A stretch of 62,294 nucleotides of DNA from Gammaproteobacteria bacterium (lineage in GTDB: Bacteria > Pseudomonadota > Gammaproteobacteria > GCA-001735895), in NCBI GenBank assembly GCA_020354435.1, contig CP070646.1, forward strand, positions 3,030,275 to 3,092,568. The letters run 5' to 3'. A program made the position numbers and the translations under genes. This document shows, piece by piece, positions 46,533-51,829 of this stretch. Every line of letters starts with the position of its first letter. Within the stretch, counting starts at the first letter, position 1. The notes beneath the pieces are model-generated. The model was not told the DNA's origin. It worked only from the letters and a program-made list of their open reading frames with translations, and searched no databases.

Positions 46533-49500
46533 TTACTGATACTCGAAATAAAACTCGGATTGATCGAGGCAGCGCTGCAGCGCCAACAGGCAAGCTTCGT
46601 CCGCCTGCAGCGACCAGCCGCCATTGGTGCGTAACTGGCACTGGTATCCGTCATGACACAGGTGAAACACGACCGGCATCGCATCGCTTGAACTGTGCCG
46701 GTCGAGCAGATCGATGATCTGGTCGATCTCGTCACTGGCATGCCCGTTCAATCGGATATGCAGCGCACGTGCATTTTCGCTGCGGTAATCGTCCAGCAGT
46801 TGTACCCGATCAGCGCGCAGCTTTACGCCATTGTTAAAGTCATCGTAGGCGATCCCGCCATCGACCACCCAGACCAGGTCCTTTTGCAGAATCGATTCGA
46901 TGCGGGCCAGCAGATCGGGGAAGATGCGCACGTCCACCCGCCCGCTGCGGTCGTCCAGGGTAACGAAGGCCTCGCGCCCGCGAAAACTGTTACGCATGCG
47001 GATATCGACAACCAGGCCACAAACGCGGGCATCCTGTTCCTTCTGGCGGAATCGCTCACCGTTACCGCCGGTATCGAGACGCTCCAGCCACTGGGCCAGC
47101 GTGGTCGGCGCAATTTGCCGAATTTCTCTGTCGACCATGGCCAGCGGATGTCCCGTCAAAAACAGACCGAGGGCCTCTTTTTCCAGCATCAAGCGCTGTT
47201 TCTCGTCCCAGGCCTCGCAATCCGGCAGGTCGTGCGATTCTGCACCGGCCGGTGTAATGCTGCCGAACATATCGGTCATACCGGCGTTGAGGTTATTCTG
47301 CTGTTGCTCTGCAGCCTGCAGTGCACGGGGCAAATGCTGCATCAACGCCGCCCGGTTCGGGCTAAAGCAATCCATCGCGCCGCCCTTGATCAGCGCCTCG
47401 ATAACCTTGCGACCGGCCTTCGACGAATCGACGCGGGCACAAAAATCGTCTAGCGAGCGATATTCCTGTTCTCCGCGGCTGTCGACAATACTGTCGATCG
47501 CGCCCTGGCCGACACCCTTGATAGCACCGAGACCATAGTAAATTCGCTTTTCGTCGCCGGCGGTAAACTGATAGCCAGAGCGATTGACATCAGGCGGCCT
47601 TATGTCGAGGCGCATTTCGCGGCAGTCGTCGATCAGGGTGACAATCTTGTCAGTATTGTCCATATCCGCCGACAGCACCGCCGCCATGAATTCAGCCGGG
47701 TAATGCCGCTTCAGCCAGGCAGTCTGGTAAGACACCAGCGCATAACCGGCGGAGTGAGACTTGTTAAAGCCATAACCGGCGAACTTTTCCATCAGGTCGA
47801 AGATGTAGGTTGCGGTCGCCGCTTCGACCTGGTTGGCGACCGCGCCGTCGGTGAATATGGCGCGCTGCTTCTCCATTTCCTCGGGTTTCTTCTTGCCCAT
47901 CGCGCGTCGCAACATGTCGGCGCCACCGAGGGTGTATCCAGCCAGTACCTGCGCAATCTGCATGACCTGCTCCTGGTACAGTATGACGCCATAGGTCGGT
48001 TTCAGAATCGCCTCCAGTGCCGGGTGCGGGTACTCGACACGGGCGCGGCCGTGCTTGCGGTCGATGAAGTCGTCGACCATGCCGGATTGCAACGGACCCG
48101 GGCGAAACAGCGCCACCAGCGCGATGATGTCTTCGAAACTGTCCGGCTGCAGGCGGCGGATCAGGTCTTTCATGCCGCGAGATTCGAGCTGGAACACCGC
48201 GGTAGTCTGGTAAGCCTGCAGCAGCTCGAAGGTTTCCGCATCGTCCAGCGGAATACGTTCGATTTCGAGCCTGTCCTCGGGCGCGCGATTGCGGTTAATC
48301 GCCCGTACCGCCCAGTCGATGATGGTCAGGGTGCGCAGACCCAGGAAATCGAACTTGACCAGGCCGACCGCCTCGACGTCATCCTTGTCGTACTGCGATA
48401 CCAGCCCGGAACCACCGGCCTCGCAGTAAAGCGGAGTGAAATCAGTCAGATGACTCGGCGAAATCACGACCCCACCAGCATGTTTGCCGACGTTACGTGT
48501 CAGGCCTTCGAGCGAACGCGCCATGTCGATCAGCATGGTGACCTCTTCTTCCTGCTGGTACAGCTCGAGCAGTGCTTCCTCCTGTTCCAGCGCCTTGTCC
48601 AGCGTCATACCGACTTCGAAAGGCACCAGCTTGGCGATACGATCGACAAAACCATAGGGATGCGACATGACGCGGCCAACGTCGCGGATGACGGCCTTGG
48701 CGGCCATGCTGCCGTAAGTGATGATCTGCGATACCTGGTCGCGGCCGTAGTGATCGGCGACGTAGTCGATCACCTCGTCGCGCCGATCCATGCAAAAGTC
48801 GATATCGAAGTCCGGCATCGATACCCGTTCGGGATTGAGAAATCGTTCGAACAGCAGTTCGTAGGCCAGCGGGTCCAGGTCGGTAATATTCAGCGCGTAG
48901 GCCACCAGCGACCCCGCACCCGAGCCACGCCCGGGTCCAACCGGTATCTGGTGGTTCTTGGCCCATTCGATAAAGTCCATGACGATCAGGAAGTAACCCG
49001 GGAAACCCATCTCGATGATGACGTCGAGTTCGAGCTGCAGGCGCTCGTAATAAGGTTCACTTTCGAGCGTCTCGCCCTCGGCTAATTGTTGCCGCAAAAA
49101 CTCGAGGCGTCGCTCTAGTCCCTCTTCGGAAACGTGGCGAAAATAGGTGTCGGTGGTGTAACCATCGGGCACCGGGTATTCGGGCAGACAGGCTTCGCCG
49201 AGCGTCAAACGCAGGTTACAGCTCTCGGCAATGGCAACTGAATTCTGAATCGCCTGGGGAATGTCGCTGAACAGTTCGATCATTTCATCGGCGGATCGCA
49301 GATACTGCTGCGGCGAATACAGCTTCGGCCGACGCTCGTCTTCGAGTGTAAATCCGGTACAGATGCAGACCCGTACCTCGTGTGCCTCGAAATCAGCCTC
49401 GTCGATGAAGCGTACATCGTTGGTTGCGACCACCGGCACCTGCAATGCTTGCGACCACGCCACCGCTTGGCTGATATAGGCTTCTTCATGGGCACGACCG

Positions 49501-50018
49501 GTGCGCTGCAGTTCGAGAAAAAAGCGTGGACCGAACAAGTCGAGCCACTGCCGCAGGCAAGCTTCGGCAAGTTCGGTGTTCTGTATACGCAACGCCAGCC
49601 CGATATCGCCCTCGAGGCAGGCCGAAAGTGCAATCAGGCCATCGCTGGACTCACGCAGCCAGTCGATATCGATCGTCGCCCGGTCGGCGGCTTGTCCCTC
49701 CAGGTAGGCTCGCGATACCAGTCGTTTCAGATTCAGGTAACCCTGTTCGTTCTGGCACAAAAGCACCAGGCGACTGAGCGGCTCGGTGCGCTCGTCGTGT
49801 CTGATCCAGACATCGGCGCCGAAAATCGGCTTGACTCCCATCGCGGTCGCCGTCTTGTAATGCTTGACCACGGCAAACATGTTGTTCAGGTCGGTCAGCG
49901 CAAAAGCGCCCATACCGCGGGCGCGCACCTGTTCTACCAGCGGCTTGAGCCGGACCGTGCTGTCCTGCAGCGAATACTCGCTGTGCAGGTGCAAATGGAC
50001 GAAACGGTCAGTTCGCAT
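46533..50018 (-). CDS. dnaE: DNA polymerase III alpha subunit
   Basis: PHP HLHLHSEYS, GPGRGSGAGS, SMPDFDIDF, KFDFLGL and GFNKSH motifs. Confidence 0.98.
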   Translation of the reverse strand: MRTDRFVHLHLHSEYSLQDSTVRLKPLVEQVRARGMGAFALTDLNNMFAVVKHYKTATAMGVKPIFGADVWIRHDERTEPLSRLVLLCQNEQGYLNLKRLVSRAYLEGQAADRATIDIDWLRESSDGLIALSACLEGDIGLALRIQNTELAEACLRQWLDLFGPRFFLELQRTGRAHEEAYISQAVAWSQALQVPVVATNDVRFIDEADFEAHEVRVCICTGFTLEDERRPKLYSPQQYLRSADEMIELFSDIPQAIQNSVAIAESCNLRLTLGEACLPEYPVPDGYTTDTYFRHVSEEGLERRLEFLRQQLAEGETLESEPYYERLQLELDVIIEMGFPGYFLIVMDFIEWAKNHQIPVGPGRGSGAGSLVAYALNITDLDPLAYELLFERFLNPERVSMPDFDIDFCMDRRDEVIDYVADHYGRDQVSQIITYGSMAAKAVIRDVGRVMSHPYGFVDRIAKLVPFEVGMTLDKALEQEEALLELYQQEEEVTMLIDMARSLEGLTRNVGKHAGGVVISPSHLTDFTPLYCEAGGSGLVSQYDKDDVEAVGLVKFDFLGLRTLTIIDWAVRAINRNRAPEDRLEIERIPLDDAETFELLQAYQTTAVFQLESRGMKDLIRRLQPDSFEDIIALVALFRPGPLQSGMVDDFIDRKHGRARVEYPHPALEAILKPTYGVILYQEQVMQIAQVLAGYTLGGADMLRRAMGKKKPEEMEKQRAIFTDGAVANQVEAATATYIFDLMEKFAGYGFNKSHSAGYALVSYQTAWLKRHYPAEFMAAVLSADMDNTDKIVTLIDDCREMRLDIRPPDVNRSGYQFTAGDEKRIYYGLGAIKGVGQGAIDSIVDSRGEQEYRSLDDFCARVDSSKAGRKVIEALIKGGAMDCFSPNRAALMQHLPRALQAAEQQQNNLNAGMTDMFGSITPAGAESHDLPDCEAWDEKQRLMLEKEALGLFLTGHPLAMVDREIRQIAPTTLAQWLERLDTGGNGERFRQKEQDARVCGLVVDIRMRNSFRGREAFVTLDDRSGRVDVRIFPDLLARIESILQKDLVWVVDGGIAYDDFNNGVKLRADRVQLLDDYRSENARALHIRLNGHASDEIDQIIDLLDRHSSSDAMPVVFHLCHDGYQCQLRTNGGWSLQADEACLLALQRCLDQSEFYFEYQ

Positions 50019-50234
50019 ATCTCACCGGTTTACCTAGCGAGGGCGTCGCAAAGACGCTGCGGCGGTCTGCACAACCCGATGTGCCAAAGGCACATCGGGG
50101 GAAAGGCCCGCGTAGGCGTAGTCCAATACTACGTTGAGTGGGCCGTCGAACCCGATGTGCTAAAGCACATCGGGGTAGGCCGTCACAGTGCGCTTTGCGA
50201 CGTCCGCAGCAGGAAACCGGTGAGATATGCGAGC
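50011..50234. repeat. 224-nt structured MITE-like element with 19-bp perfect terminal IR and three internal hairpins
   Basis: TCGCATATCTCACCGGTTT (50013-50031) / AAACCGGTGAGATATGCGA (50214-50232); inner arms 50041-50070 / 50175-50205; twin hairpins 50075-50099 and 50151-50174; central hairpin 50105-50144. Confidence 0.85.
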
Positions 50235-50848
50235 TAATCATTCAGCAATTCCCTGACCGGCTTGAAGCTGCGCCGGTGTACCGCCGAAACGCCATGCTTC
50301 TTCAGCATTTCCCTATGCAACGCGGTCGGGTAACCCTTGTGTTGCGCAAAGCAGTACTCGGGAAAGCGACGATCGAGCTCCAGCATTTGCCGATCGCGAT
50401 AATTCTTGGCCAGAATCGATGCCGCAGAAATACAGGGTTCGTAAAGATCGCCCTTGACGATGGCATACAGCTGATAACCCTCGACCACGGGTAATCGGTT
50501 GCCGTCGACCAGCACTTCGTCCGGCTTCGGCTGCAGGTTCAGCAAAGCGCGTTTCATCGCCAGCAAGCTGGCCTGCAGGATATTGATGTCATCGACTTCC
50601 CGGTGGCTGGCCTCGGCGATTGCCCAGGCGCGCGCTTTTTGCTTTATTTCGGATTCGAGCGAGAGACGCTGACGCTCTGAGAGTTTCTTGGAATCGGTCA
50701 GGCCTGCGACCGGGCGGGCCTCGTCGAGTATCACCGCGGCGGCGACAACCGAGCCCGCCAGCGGACCGCGGCCGGCCTCGTCGATACCGGCAACAAGCCG
50801 GGACTTCTGAGCAGGACAGGCTTGCTTCGCAATTGGGTTTTCAAGCAT
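50234..50848 (-). CDS. rnhB: Ribonuclease HII
   Basis: [26 protein letters not shown] and HKGYPT motifs. Confidence 0.97.
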
Positions 50849-50884
50849 ATATAATGCGCCGTTTGAAATTTACCCCTGCCACTT

Positions 50885-51829
50885 ATGTCTCAATTACTCA
50901 AGGTTGCCGTTGTTGGTGCAGGTCACCTCGGCAAATGGCATGCTGACAAATACGCCGCCTGCGCCGATTGTGAACTGGTTGCAGTGGTGGATACCAACGC
51001 CGAAAACGCGGGTGCGATCGCGGACAAACATGGTGCCGAGCCGTTTGCCGATTATCGCGATATCATTTCAATGGTCGACGCGATCAGCCTGGTGGTTCCA
51101 ACCAGCCTGCATTATAAAATCGGGCGCGAGTTTCTGGAAGCGGGAATTCACTGTTTGATCGAAAAACCGGTCACCGAAACGGCCGACGAAGCCGAAACCC
51201 TGATTCGGATCGCGGCCGAACAGGGCGCCGTACTGCAGGTTGGACATATCGAACGCTTTAACAGCGTCATGCTCGGCATTACCCCGCACCTGCACCAACC
51301 GCAATTCATCGAATCCACCCGACTGGCACCCTTCACCCTGCGCGCGACCGATGTCAGCGTTATCCTCGACCTGATGATTCACGATATCGATATCATCCTG
51401 GACCTGGTCGATAGTCCGATTGCGCGGGTTTCGGCCAGCGGCATTTCGGTGCTGTCCGATACCATCGATATCGCCAATGCGCGCATCGAGTTCGAGAATC
51501 ACTGCGTAGCCAACGTCACCGCGAGCCGCATCAGTCGTAAACGCGAACGTAAGCTGCGAATTTTCCAGAAGGACGCCTATCTTTCCGCAGATTTCCAGGA
51601 AAAGATCCTGGCGATTAATCGCAAGGGTGAAACAGACAATCCCGAGGGTTACAAGGATATCTCCCACCAGGAGCTGAACTTCGAGGATAACGATGCGTTA
51701 AACCTCGAAGTGCTGGATTTCGTCAACGCGATCAAGACCGGAGGGCGCCCGCTGGTGGATGGCGCCGACGGCAAGCGTGCACTGGAAACTGCAATCGAAA
51801 TTACGTCACAGATCAAGCAATCGTTATGA
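50885..51829 (+). CDS. gnnA: Gfo/Idh/MocA oxidoreductase, probable UDP-GlcNAc 3-dehydrogenase
   Basis: VVGAGHLGKWH, IEKP, VGHIERFN and DLMIHDID motifs; followed by a DegT aminotransferase and lpxB. Confidence 0.8.
   Translation: MSQLLKVAVVGAGHLGKWHADKYAACADCELVAVVDTNAENAGAIADKHGAEPFADYRDIISMVDAISLVVPTSLHYKIGREFLEAGIHCLIEKPVTETADEAETLIRIAAEQGAVLQVGHIERFNSVMLGITPHLHQPQFIESTRLAPFTLRATDVSVILDLMIHDIDIILDLVDSPIARVSASGISVLSDTIDIANARIEFENHCVANVTASRISRKRERKLRIFQKDAYLSADFQEKILAINRKGETDNPEGYKDISHQELNFEDNDALNLEVLDFVNAIKTGGRPLVDGADGKRALETAIEITSQIKQSL

What the first reader, a model, noticed from the sequence alone, without database searches (positions are those of the whole stretch)
50011..50234. 224-nt cloverleaf element whose terminal repeat contains the dnaE RBS and start codon
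The whole rnhB-dnaE gap folds back on itself. A perfect 19-bp IR (50013-50031 / 50214-50232) continues through about 28 more pairs (50041-50070 / 50175-50205) and is capped by three hairpins. Two of these are near-identical direct repeats (CCCGATGTGC...GCACATCGGG) with a compensatory C-G/T-A change; the central one is CGTAGT/ACTACG inside GGCCCGC/GTGGGCC. The left IR arm supplies GGTGAG-ATATG-CGA, the SD-like sequence, ATG and second codon of the essential replicase. The right arm abuts the rnhB stop. On the mRNA, the upstream arm is an exact anti-RBS/anti-start sequence. Non-Watson-Crick positions are G-U on the + strand in about 6 places versus 1 on the mRNA strand, which suggests selection on the antisense/ssDNA fold. 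Interpretation: a MITE-like element co-opted as the dnaE translation-initiation region, possibly giving translational coupling (ribosomes ending rnhB would open the stem) or antisense control of Pol III.
Basis: partly seen in the sequence, partly recalled or inferred. Interest (0 to 1): 0.8.

Follow-up and report, generated by a model that had tools for sequence, protein, structure and literature searches.

The report
Jumping element supplies dnaE's start codon
A 224-bp non-coding transposon (an IS1380-type MITE) landed on the overlapping rnhB stop and dnaE start, and its end now provides the ribosome-binding site and start codon of the essential replicase gene; this element family does the same at many other genes.

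Summary
Window 50011-50234 is one long fold-back with three capping hairpins. It fills the rnhB-dnaE gap, and its terminal repeat contains dnaE's GGTGAG and ATG.

It is a non-autonomous transposon (MITE). Its ends, GGTGAGAWATGCGGGY|TA, are those of 1.7-kb IS1380-family insertion sequences. Related species carry up to about 200 copies. This genome has two large copies and no transposase.

51 of 53 relatives have rnhB and dnaE abutting, overlapping or separated by a short non-MITE spacer (ATGnnTAA in the closest). Removing the element restores ATG ATT AAC CGT (M I N R F) with an rnhB TAA stop. The element therefore cut dnaE from its own start. Its end supplies a new in-frame ATG (M R T D R F) and the G that completes rnhB's TAG.

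This recurs across the family:
- Among 173 element ends, long outward ORFs lie in the repeat's ATG frame 20:7:5.
- The old ATG is still visible upstream in 8 of 12 such cases.

The new start is locked in the stem (about 35 kcal/mol to open, versus about 10 in relatives). My inferred mechanism is a relay. The old ATG still overlaps the rnhB stop and opens a 77-codon frame through the element, ending at TGA on the new ATG.

The G-U strand bias is a family trait, not local dnaE control.

The parts
50011..50234 (.). IS1380-type MITE, 224 bp (GTTCGCATATCTCACC...GGTGAGATATGCGAGC). The CCC..GGG core as defined in other copies is 50012-50233.
   Evidence: The family ends were defined from about 25 copies. 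The same ends occur on 1.7-kb elements that encode an IS1380 transposase. Relatives have empty sites.
50235..50236 (.). Target-site duplication TA on the rnhB side. With the element's first base it forms rnhB's stop codon TAG (50234-50236, minus strand).
50009..50010 (.). Target-site duplication on the dnaE side, now CA on the + strand (TG on the mRNA; originally TA). It forms the end of dnaE codon 3 and the start of codon 4, and is part of the TGA stop of the read-through frame.
   Evidence: The reconstructed empty site ATG ATT AAC CGT matches the relatives' ATG nnT AAC CGn.
50016..50018 (-). Present dnaE start codon ATG, inside the terminal repeat.
   Evidence: It is the first start after an in-frame TGA. 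NCBIfam DnaE profile position 2 aligns with residue 2. It lies one codon from the position of the relatives' starts.
50021..50026 (-). GGTGAG, the Shine-Dalgarno-like part of the terminal repeat, 3 nt before the ATG after GGTGA. It contains an in-frame TGA (50024-50022) that closes the dnaE frame two codons upstream of the ATG.
   Evidence: Read directly from the sequence. The repeat is conserved across copies and phyla.
50239..50241 (-). Ancestral dnaE start codon ATG, still overlapping the rnhB stop (ATGATTAG).
   Evidence: Relatives have ATGnnTAA at this position.
50008..50241 (-). 77-codon read-through frame ('relay ORF'). It runs from the ancestral ATG through the whole element to a TGA that overlaps the new start (ATGCGAACTGA).
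   Evidence: Listed, translated. The same geometry is seen at other start-donating copies.
50013..50031 (.). Terminal stem arm on the dnaE side. On the mRNA it is the 3' arm and holds the SD-like site, the ATG and codon 2.
50214..50232 (.). Terminal stem arm on the rnhB side. On the mRNA it is the 5' arm, an exact anti-SD and anti-start sequence.
   Evidence: The opening energy is 34.8 kcal/mol.
50075..50099 (.). Optional hairpin module 1 (CCCGATGTGCC AAA GGCACATCGGG).
   Evidence: It is present only in a subset of family copies.
50105..50144 (.). Conserved central hairpin of the family (GGCCCGC..GGCGTAGT..ACTACG..GTGGGCC).
   Evidence: compensatory changes.
50151..50174 (.). Optional hairpin module 2 (CCCGATGTGCT AA AGCACATCGGG).
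   Evidence: An identical solo copy lies elsewhere in the genome.
46533..50018 (-). dnaE (DNA polymerase III alpha, 1161 aa, the only copy found in the genome). Its N-terminus is MRTDRFVHLHLHS.
50234..50848 (-). rnhB (RNase HII, 204 aa).

Best explanation
SHOWN
1. Window 50011-50234 is a non-autonomous transposon (MITE). Its terminal repeats are those of IS1380-family insertion sequences.
2. It inserted into the TA of the rnhB stop codon TAA. In the ancestral arrangement that TAA overlapped dnaE codons 2-3 (ATG ATT AAC CGT).
3. The insertion separated dnaE from its own start codon.
4. The outward-facing end of the repeat, GGTGAGAT-ATG-CGr-rC|T.., carries an ATG that falls in frame. dnaE now begins M-R-T-D-R-F instead of M-I-N-R-F.
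5. At the other end, the repeat's first G turns the duplicated TA into a TAG stop for rnhB.
6. This repair of a gene boundary is a general property of the family. In related genomes its ends start TruB, RNase T, LpxD, RluC, GlcE, XdhB, a tartrate dehydrogenase, RnhB and others, and the old ATG usually remains visible just upstream of the element.

INFERRED
1. On the rnhB-dnaE mRNA the new SD-like site and ATG are one strand of a 19-bp perfect stem, about 45 bp when the imperfect part is counted. Free 30S binding should therefore be negligible.
2. Ribosomes finishing rnhB restart at the surviving ancestral ATG (AUGAUUAG overlap, as in relatives).
3. They translate a 77-codon frame through the entire element, unwinding it.
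4. They stop at UGA, the former target duplication, which overlaps the new start (AUGCGAACUGA), and reinitiate there.

My odds are about 0.9 for element identity and start donation, and about 0.45 for the two-step relay as the main route of dnaE translation.
For: Identity as a MITE
- A second copy and a solo hairpin occur in the own genome.
- 13 of 61 related genomes carry copies, some more than 20. Exact or near-exact repeat ends reach about 100 per strand in G005.
- The ends are TA|RCCCGCATATCTCACC ... GGTGAGATATGCGGGY|TA.
- The same ends flank 1.7-kb elements in three phyla that encode transposases matching PF13701 (E = 1e-151 to 1e-162) and NF033539, the IS1380 family (E = 6e-124).
- The own genome has no such transposase.

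Insertion site
- Of 53 relatives' rnhB-dnaE junctions, none has this element. 51 are compact, with overlapping or adjacent genes or a short non-MITE spacer. The closest read ...ATGACTAAC CGC and ...ATGGATAAC CGA.
- Joining the window's flanks gives ATG ATT AAC CGT, with rnhB ending in TAA.
- One relative (G074) has a degenerate 47-nt mini-element at the same TA, with a GTG at the position of the repeat's ATG.

Start codon
- The ATG is the first start after an in-frame TGA.
- DnaE profile position 2 aligns with residue 2.

Recurrence in the family
- Among 173 ends, flanking ORFs open for at least 199 codons are in the repeat's ATG frame 20 times, against 7 and 5 in the other frames (binomial p = 7e-4).
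- NCBIfam profile positions 1-5 align to residues 2-13 of eight such proteins.
- An ancestral ATG lies within 4 codons upstream of the element in 8 of 12 fused cases against 6 of 84 others (Fisher p = 9e-6).

Need for coupling
- The opening energy of -15..+12 around the new AUG is 34.8 kcal/mol. It is 9.3-10.6 for the native starts of six relatives.
- No sigma-70-like promoter or terminator lies inside the element.

Relay
- The 77-codon frame 50241..50008 is open.
- In 10 of 13 fused cases elsewhere, the read-in frame first stops at -6 or +8 relative to the repeat's ATG, against 38 of 85 other ends.
Against: - There are no expression data.
- The openness of the 77-codon frame is not statistically remarkable. 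4 of 9 family copies of the same length class are open in that frame, and only 5 of 25 overall. It may be chance rather than selected.
- The stop near the ATG follows automatically from the repeat's sequence, so the 10/13 versus 38/85 contrast is weak evidence for selection.
- GGTGA is not the canonical GGAGG core, and the genome's 16S 3' end is masked, so it could not be checked.
- A perfect 19-bp stem inside a longer helix is also a plausible RNase III substrate, which would give a different route to an open start.
Confidence: 0.6

Rival explanations
1. The ribosome terminating at the rnhB UAG sits at the 5' base of the stem. It melts the first roughly 10 bp, exposes the AUG on the opposite arm (physically adjacent, although 215 nt away in sequence), and dnaE is initiated there without any translation of the element.
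For: The stop codon straddles the first base of the stem. The new start is otherwise inaccessible. The ancestral arrangement was also a stop/start overlap.
Against: About 10 nt of unwinding would free the AUG but not GGUGAG (50021-50026). A ribosome releasing at UAG meets the ancestral AUG 5 nt upstream, in the native coupling geometry, and that is the simpler fate. There is no direct test.
Confidence: 0.2
2. RNA processing or a shorter transcript frees the start. Either RNase III cuts the long perfect stem, as it does Correia elements in Neisseria mRNAs, or transcription starts inside the element. In both cases the dnaE mRNA lacks the 5' arm and is translated independently of rnhB.
For: The stem is 19 bp perfect within a helix of about 45 bp. 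RNase III cleavage at the inverted repeats of MITE-containing transcripts is documented for Correia elements (PMC10969869, PMC2649163).
Against: No promoter-like site was found in the element on the mRNA strand. After cleavage the two arms would still be base-paired unless they are degraded. There are no data for this organism.
Confidence: 0.15
3. The fold of the + strand (antisense to dnaE) is the functional one at this locus. An antisense RNA or a single-stranded DNA structure controls Pol III alpha synthesis or replication through this site.
For: The + strand folds 30 kcal/mol better than the mRNA strand, with 9 G-U pairs against 1.
Against: The same polarity is found in 25 of 25 family copies at unrelated loci, with G-U cells outnumbering A-C cells 118 to 22. 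It therefore came with the element. No promoter drives the + strand across the element. There is no Rfam match.
Confidence: 0.05
4. dnaE starts at another codon (for example TTG, codon 9), or the locus is an assembly artefact, so the repeat's ATG is irrelevant.
For: An in-frame TTG exists at codon 9. Genome completeness is scored at only 84.8%.
Against: A start at codon 9 would remove the RFVH residues conserved in all 53 relatives. The element has intact ends and a recognisable target duplication, and it keeps both reading frames closed and opened exactly as other copies do. The genome is a single 3.72-Mb contig.
Confidence: 0.04

Closest known systems
IS1380-family insertion sequences (ISEcp1, IS1247, ISPme1 and similar; transposase NF033539 / PF13701)
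   Same: The terminal repeat is identical: TA|RCCCGCAT(A/T)TCTCACC on 1.7-kb transposase-bearing copies and on the window element. The TA-centred YTAR target is also shared. IS1380 transposases are used as the prokaryotic outgroup of piggyBac, which targets TTAA (PMC10813416).
   Different: The window element has no transposase, and its interior is not a deletion remnant of the IS. It is a long, covarying hairpin with optional hairpin modules. ISEcp1 is known, from my own knowledge, for an outward promoter, not for an outward start codon.
Correia repeat-enclosed elements (CREE/NEMIS) of Neisseria
   Same: Both are small elements with terminal inverted repeats, inserted at TA, co-transcribed with neighbouring genes. 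They fold into hairpins on mRNA that affect downstream expression (PMC2649163, PMC10969869).
   Different: Correia ends create promoters, an IHF site and RNase III sites. They are not reported to supply the start codon and first codons of the downstream gene. Their repeat sequence is different, and no IS1380 partner is known.
Rickettsia palindromic elements (RPE) and other intragenic MITEs
   Same: These are palindromic mobile elements tolerated inside protein-coding genes because they respect the reading frame (PMC10969869).
   Different: RPEs add an in-frame peptide inside the protein. Here the element replaces the gene's start (new M-R-A/V/T N-terminus) and leaves the old start upstream as a separate short frame.
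Translational coupling by termination-reinitiation at overlapping stop/start codons
   Same: The ancestral rnhB/dnaE junction (ATGnnTAA) and both present junctions (AUGAUUAG and AUGCGAACUGA) have the overlap geometry described for coupled gene pairs (PMC6728339, PMC10666635, PMC12548453).
   Different: Here two such junctions would act in series, connected by a 77-codon non-genic frame through a transposon hairpin. This is inferred, not tested.

Membership tests
MITE (miniature inverted-repeat transposable element) | Small size and no transposase gene | tested here: met
   The element is 224 bp. Its only long frame is the 77-codon read-through, a Cys/Arg-rich product with no transposase features.
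MITE (miniature inverted-repeat transposable element) | Terminal inverted repeats shared by dispersed copies | tested here: met
   The same ends are seen in about 25 aligned copies and in hundreds of pattern hits in related genomes.
MITE (miniature inverted-repeat transposable element) | Target-site duplication and an empty site in relatives | tested here: met
   TA is present on the rnhB side and has decayed to TG (mRNA strand) on the dnaE side. 51 of 53 relatives have an uninterrupted junction that matches the joined flanks.
MITE (miniature inverted-repeat transposable element) | Multiple copies in the same genome | tested here: inconclusive
   The own genome has only 2 large copies plus about 4 mini repeat pairs. 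Copies are abundant only in sister species.
IS1380-family derived element | Terminal repeats match those of elements encoding an IS1380 transposase | tested here: met
   L164, L168 and L186 are 1704-1754-bp elements with the same ends. Their transposases match NF033539 (413.9 bits, cut-off 180) and PF13701.
IS1380-family derived element | 4-5 bp direct target repeat (family description in ISfinder, recalled from memory; Paracoccus IS1247 has a 5-bp repeat in PMC3281130) | tested here: inconclusive
   In 54 copies the 4-mers are CTAG/CTAG in 18 cases. Among 33 non-palindromic cases, 4 are direct 4-bp repeats, and in 24 the bases flanking the TA are complementary. That second pattern fits a 2-bp TA duplication plus a repeat starting with R.
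IS1380-family derived element | A cognate transposase in the same genome, making the element mobilisable now | tested here: not met
   tblastn of an IS1380 transposase against the whole genome found nothing. The copy is probably immobile here.
Structured RNA family (Rfam) | Match to a curated covariance model | tested here: not met
   No Rfam 15 hit at E <= 1 over 49500-50800. The family does have its own covarying structure: 30 of 65 pairs carry double changes, and 0 of 500 shuffles reach that.
Translationally coupled gene pair (termination-reinitiation) | Stop of the upstream frame overlapping or within a few nt of the downstream start | tested here: met
   ATGATTAG joins rnhB to the relay frame, and ATGCGAACTGA joins the relay frame to dnaE.
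Translationally coupled gene pair (termination-reinitiation) | Downstream translation depends on upstream translation | not testable with these tools
   This needs reporters or ribosome profiling.

The most novel reading that the evidence does not exclude
The ends of this phylum-spanning IS1380-type MITE family act as a portable gene-boundary cassette. At one end, the first base (G) rebuilds a TAG stop from the duplicated TA. At the other end, the repeat presents stops in two frames (TGA at -6, TAR at +8) around an SD-like GGTGA-N3-ATG in the third frame. Any ribosome reading in from an interrupted gene is therefore released right at a ready-made restart site. This would let the element colonise the first codons of genes and stop/start overlaps in operons without killing them, including the essential replicase gene. 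It would also put those genes under obligatory translational coupling through a hairpin. The interior would be a polarity-conserved structured RNA or ssDNA module with its own, still unknown, function.
Probability: 0.3. Interest if true: 0.8.

Novelty: new variant of a known kind. Interest (0 to 1): 0.6.

Why it matters
MITEs are known to bring promoters, terminators, RNase sites and in-frame peptides. A family whose terminal repeat routinely replaces the start codon and ribosome-binding site of host genes, and rebuilds the upstream stop, is not in the 2024 review of prokaryotic MITEs, which does not mention 'start codon', 'IS1380' or 'ribosome'. My literature searches did not find it either.

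It matters in three ways:
- Annotation. Proteins beginning MRA, MRV or MRT next to such elements have transposon-derived N-termini, and the old start is left behind as a short upstream frame.
- Transposon tolerance. It shows how a transposon can sit inside an essential operon.
- A natural test case. An essential gene's initiation site is sealed in a 19-bp perfect stem about 35 kcal/mol strong, so translation must be driven by upstream ribosomes or by RNA processing.

The same repeat occurs from Gammaproteobacteria to Planctomycetota and Acidobacteriota, so the effect may be widespread.

Tried and rejected
- Rfam scan of the region: no family.
- Sigma-70 promoter and intrinsic-terminator scan: nothing inside the element. 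I found no support for an internal promoter or a terminator role.
- 16S 3' end, to check the anti-SD: not found. The genome copy holds 45,700 N, and the rRNA is presumably masked.
- Is the 77-codon frame kept open by selection? The test was negative or indecisive. The read-in frame is open in only 5 of 25 large copies and in 4 of 9 of the same length class.
- Does the stable strand have a preferred orientation relative to the gene it starts? Too few orientable cases: 4 against 1.
- 2-bp versus 4-bp target duplication: unresolved.
- Autonomous partner in the own genome: none.
- I first suspected an IS630- or IS5-type origin because of the TA/CTAG target. I rejected that once the 1.7-kb copies proved to encode IS1380 transposases.
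- Organism name: the nearest named record is only 'Gammaproteobacteria bacterium isolate Cli_6' (78.7% identity over 4.5 kb).
Full report
1. THE OBSERVATION

dnaE is 46533..50018 on the minus strand, and rnhB is 50234..50848 on the minus strand. The 215-nt gap between them, together with a few coding bases on each side, forms one fold-back.
- A perfect 19-bp inverted repeat lies at 50013-50031 / 50214-50232. Imperfect pairing extends it, and a second long helix follows inside it.
- Three hairpins cap the structure. Two are near-identical (50075-50099 and 50151-50174), and one is central (50105-50144).
- The + strand folds at -165.1 kcal/mol (z = -16.8) and the mRNA strand at -135.4 kcal/mol (z = -12.1).

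2. WHAT IT IS

The element is a member of a dispersed repeat family.
- The own genome has a second copy (C1:1957963-1958163, about 72% identical, lacking one hairpin module). It also has a solo copy of the hairpin module.
- 13 of 61 related genomes, all in the same genus, carry copies, several with more than 20 BLAST-level matches.
- Aligning about 25 copies with their flanks defines the ends as TA|RCCCGCATATCTCACCG...CGGTGAGATATGCGGGY|TA, usually in a CTAG, TTAA or CTAA context.
- The repeat end occurs about 100 times per strand in G005, and is also abundant in G023 and G006.
- Element sizes run from about 45 to 360 bp, and interiors are modular.

A scan of 185,579 species genomes for GGTGAGAWATGCGGGYTA hit many phyla: Gammaproteobacteria, Alphaproteobacteria, Planctomycetota, Acidobacteriota, Verrucomicrobiota, Gemmatimonadota and Nitrospirota. 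Where two ends lie about 1.7 kb apart (L164, L168, L186) they enclose one ORF. That ORF matches PF13701 (E = 1e-151 to 1e-162) and NCBIfam NF033539, 'IS1380 family transposase'.

The window element is therefore an IS1380-type MITE. The own genome has no IS1380 transposase, so this copy is probably stranded.

3. WHERE IT LANDED

I recovered the rnhB-dnaE junction of 53 related genomes.
- In 51 of them there is no such element, and the genes overlap, abut or are separated by a short non-MITE spacer.
- In the closest relatives the junction reads ...GAT GAC TAA with ATG ACT AAC CGC (M T N R F), or ...AAT GGA TAA with ATG GAT AAC CGA. The rnhB stop lies inside dnaE codons 2-3.

In the window the mRNA strand reads:
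...CTG AAT GAT TA|G CTCGCATATC ... GGTGAGAT ATG CGA AC|TG|AC CGT TTC.

Removing the element and one copy of the duplicated TA gives CTGAATGATTAACCGT. This reads as rnhB ...L N D TAA and dnaE ATG ATT AAC CGT (M I N R F V H), exactly the relatives' pattern.

So the element inserted into the TA of the rnhB stop, which is also the dnaE codon 2/3 boundary. Three consequences follow directly from the sequence:
- (a) rnhB keeps its length. Its stop is now TAG, made of the target TA plus the element's first G.
- (b) dnaE lost its own ATG, which still sits at 50241-50239.
- (c) The ATG inside the repeat (50018-50016) is in frame with dnaE.

The consensus repeat would give M R A N R F. The present sequence gives M R T D R F, after substitutions in the last bases of the repeat and in the duplicated TA. 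An in-frame TGA inside GGTGAG closes the frame two codons upstream, so this ATG is the first possible start. The NCBIfam DnaE profile aligns from its position 2 to residue 2.

One relative (G074) has a degenerate 47-nt mini-element at the very same TA, with GTG where the repeat has ATG. This is either an independent hit at a permissive site or an old shared one.

4. THIS IS A FAMILY HABIT

I collected 173 element ends from three related genomes. For each, I asked in which frame the outward flank stays open for at least 199 codons.
- 20 were in the frame of the repeat's ATG, against 7 and 5 in the other two frames (binomial p = 7e-4).
- Ten such proteins were scanned against NCBIfam. In TruB, RNase T, LpxD, RluC, a tartrate dehydrogenase, GlcE, XdhB and DNA-deoxyinosine glycosylase, profile positions 1-5 align with residues 2-13. 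The repeat's ATG therefore sits at the true N-terminus.
- In 8 of 12 fused cases an ATG lies within four codons upstream of the far end of the element in the matching frame (for example ATG GCT A|, ATG ACT A|, ATG ATT A|). The figure is 6 of 84 for other ends (Fisher p = 9e-6).

These are insertions into the first codons of genes that leave the old start stranded, just as at dnaE. Two further examples seen in passing are rnhB itself in G033 and folA in G005.

5. STRUCTURE AND POLARITY

- An 18-copy alignment gives a consensus of 65 pairs. 30 of them carry compensatory double changes, against 8.7 +/- 2.2 in shuffles (0 of 500 reach the observed value). 93.9% of cells are paired, against 30-45% when partners are slid.
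- All 25 orientable copies fold more stably on the strand that corresponds to the window's + strand, by a mean of 13 kcal/mol.
- G-U cells outnumber A-C cells 118 to 22.

It says nothing specific about dnaE. What the polarity is for remains open: it could be a single-stranded DNA form during transposition or an element-borne RNA. No Rfam family matches.

6. HOW DNAE IS PROBABLY TRANSLATED NOW (INFERENCE)

On the mRNA, making positions -15..+12 around the new AUG single-stranded costs 34.8 kcal/mol. The native starts of six relatives cost 9.3-10.6. No promoter-like or terminator-like site lies in the element. An essential gene cannot depend on spontaneous opening of such a stem.

The ancestral AUG still overlaps the rnhB stop (AUGAUUAG), the same geometry as in relatives. 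It opens a 77-codon frame (50241..50008) that crosses the entire element and ends at UGA 50010-50008. That UGA is the former TAA of the duplicated target, and it overlaps the new start (AUGCGAACUGA).

I therefore propose a relay. Termination at rnhB is followed by reinitiation at the old AUG. Translation through the hairpin unwinds it. Termination on top of the new AUG is followed by reinitiation on GGUGA-N3-AUG.

The repeat's own sequence explains why this geometry recurs. Read outward, one frame ends at the target TAR (+8), one ends at TGA (-6), and the third carries the ATG. In 10 of 13 fused cases elsewhere the read-in frame first stops at -6 or +8.

Caveats:
- The openness of the interior is not unusual: 4 of 9 copies of the same length class are open.
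- The stop positions follow automatically from the repeat.
- There are no expression data.

7. COMPARISON WITH WHAT IS KNOWN, AND NOVELTY

By repeat sequence and by partner, the element belongs to the IS1380 family. That family's transposases are used as the prokaryotic outgroup of piggyBac (PMC10813416). It behaves like other bacterial MITEs that are co-transcribed and fold on mRNA (Correia, ERIC), and like RPEs in being tolerated inside genes.

The mode is different. It does not add an in-frame peptide or a promoter. It replaces the translation start and restores the upstream stop.

I found no description of IS1380-derived MITEs or of start-codon donation by MITEs in the searchable literature. 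That is absence in a limited library, not proof.

Earlier notes of this scan, which I read after my own identification, report the same family donating a tatD start, splitting an ATGA overlap and sitting in frame in genes in other phyla. These are unchecked AI notes and are not counted as evidence, but my data agree with them.

8. VERDICT

- The MITE identity and the donated start are well supported.
- The regulatory interpretation is only partly supported.
- The specific locus is one clear instance, in an essential gene, of a recurrent and apparently undescribed property of a widespread MITE family.

Noticed in passing
L005:1501-1716 (G033:C30:15060-15275): The copy most similar to the window element (81% identity, and the only other copy with both CCCGATGTGC hairpin modules) sits in a sister species about 0.6 kb away in the same operon, at the start of rnhB. 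Its repeat ATG now begins RnhB (ATG CCT AAG CTT GTT GCT GGT ATC GAC GAG), truncating the N-terminal extension seen in the window's RnhB. This could reflect a local hop of a cut-and-paste element, or coincidence.
   Followed up: partly
L040:1446-1500 (G074:C251): A degenerate 47-nt mini-element lies at exactly the same TA of the rnhB stop / dnaE start as in the window. The start is now GTG, and an 18-codon read-in frame from the old ATG ends at the duplicated TAA. It is either an independent insertion at the same site or an old shared one.
   Followed up: partly
G000:C1:116478-116505 (L004:1501-1528): A solo copy of hairpin module 2 (AACCCGATGTGCTAAAGCACATCGGGG, 28/28 identical) lies far from any repeat end. 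The hairpin modules may move or be copied independently of the MITE.
   Followed up: no
L002:1497-1697 (G000:C1:1957963-1958163): The second large copy in this genome lies between divergent ilvA-like and rpiA-like genes. On the rpiA side the repeat's ATG opens a 6-codon frame (ATG CAG GTT ATA AAT CCA TGA) whose TGA overlaps the rpiA ATG (ATGA).
   Followed up: partly
G000:C1:2958910-2958982, 1999501-1999592, 1924026-1924116, 1001652-1001751: Four mini-elements of about 70-100 bp consist of little more than two facing repeat ends. They are relics of the same family in a genome that has no IS1380 transposase.
   Followed up: no
L011, L021, L030 (G005); L027 (G033); L078, L081 (G006): A subset of copies carries an extra module of about 50 nt (CACGACTGCATGGAYGCAGGAGGTAGAGCAATGCAGGAGCAATTGCCGAG) inserted in the right arm just before the terminal repeat. 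The family is built from exchangeable modules.
   Followed up: no
L187 (CBDCDS010000003.1, Gammaproteobacteria MAG): 2676, 4943, 7210: Three repeat ends on the same strand at an exact 2,267-nt period suggest a tandem array of an IS1380-type unit.
   Followed up: no
window 50849-50884: Only 36 nt separate the rnhB start codon from the divergent + strand ORF that starts at 50885. The promoters of both must overlap or lie inside the neighbouring genes. The scan's only promoter-like hit (50826-50855, + strand) lies here.
   Followed up: no
Completeness is scored at 84.8% although the genome is a single 3.72-Mb contig.
   Followed up: partly
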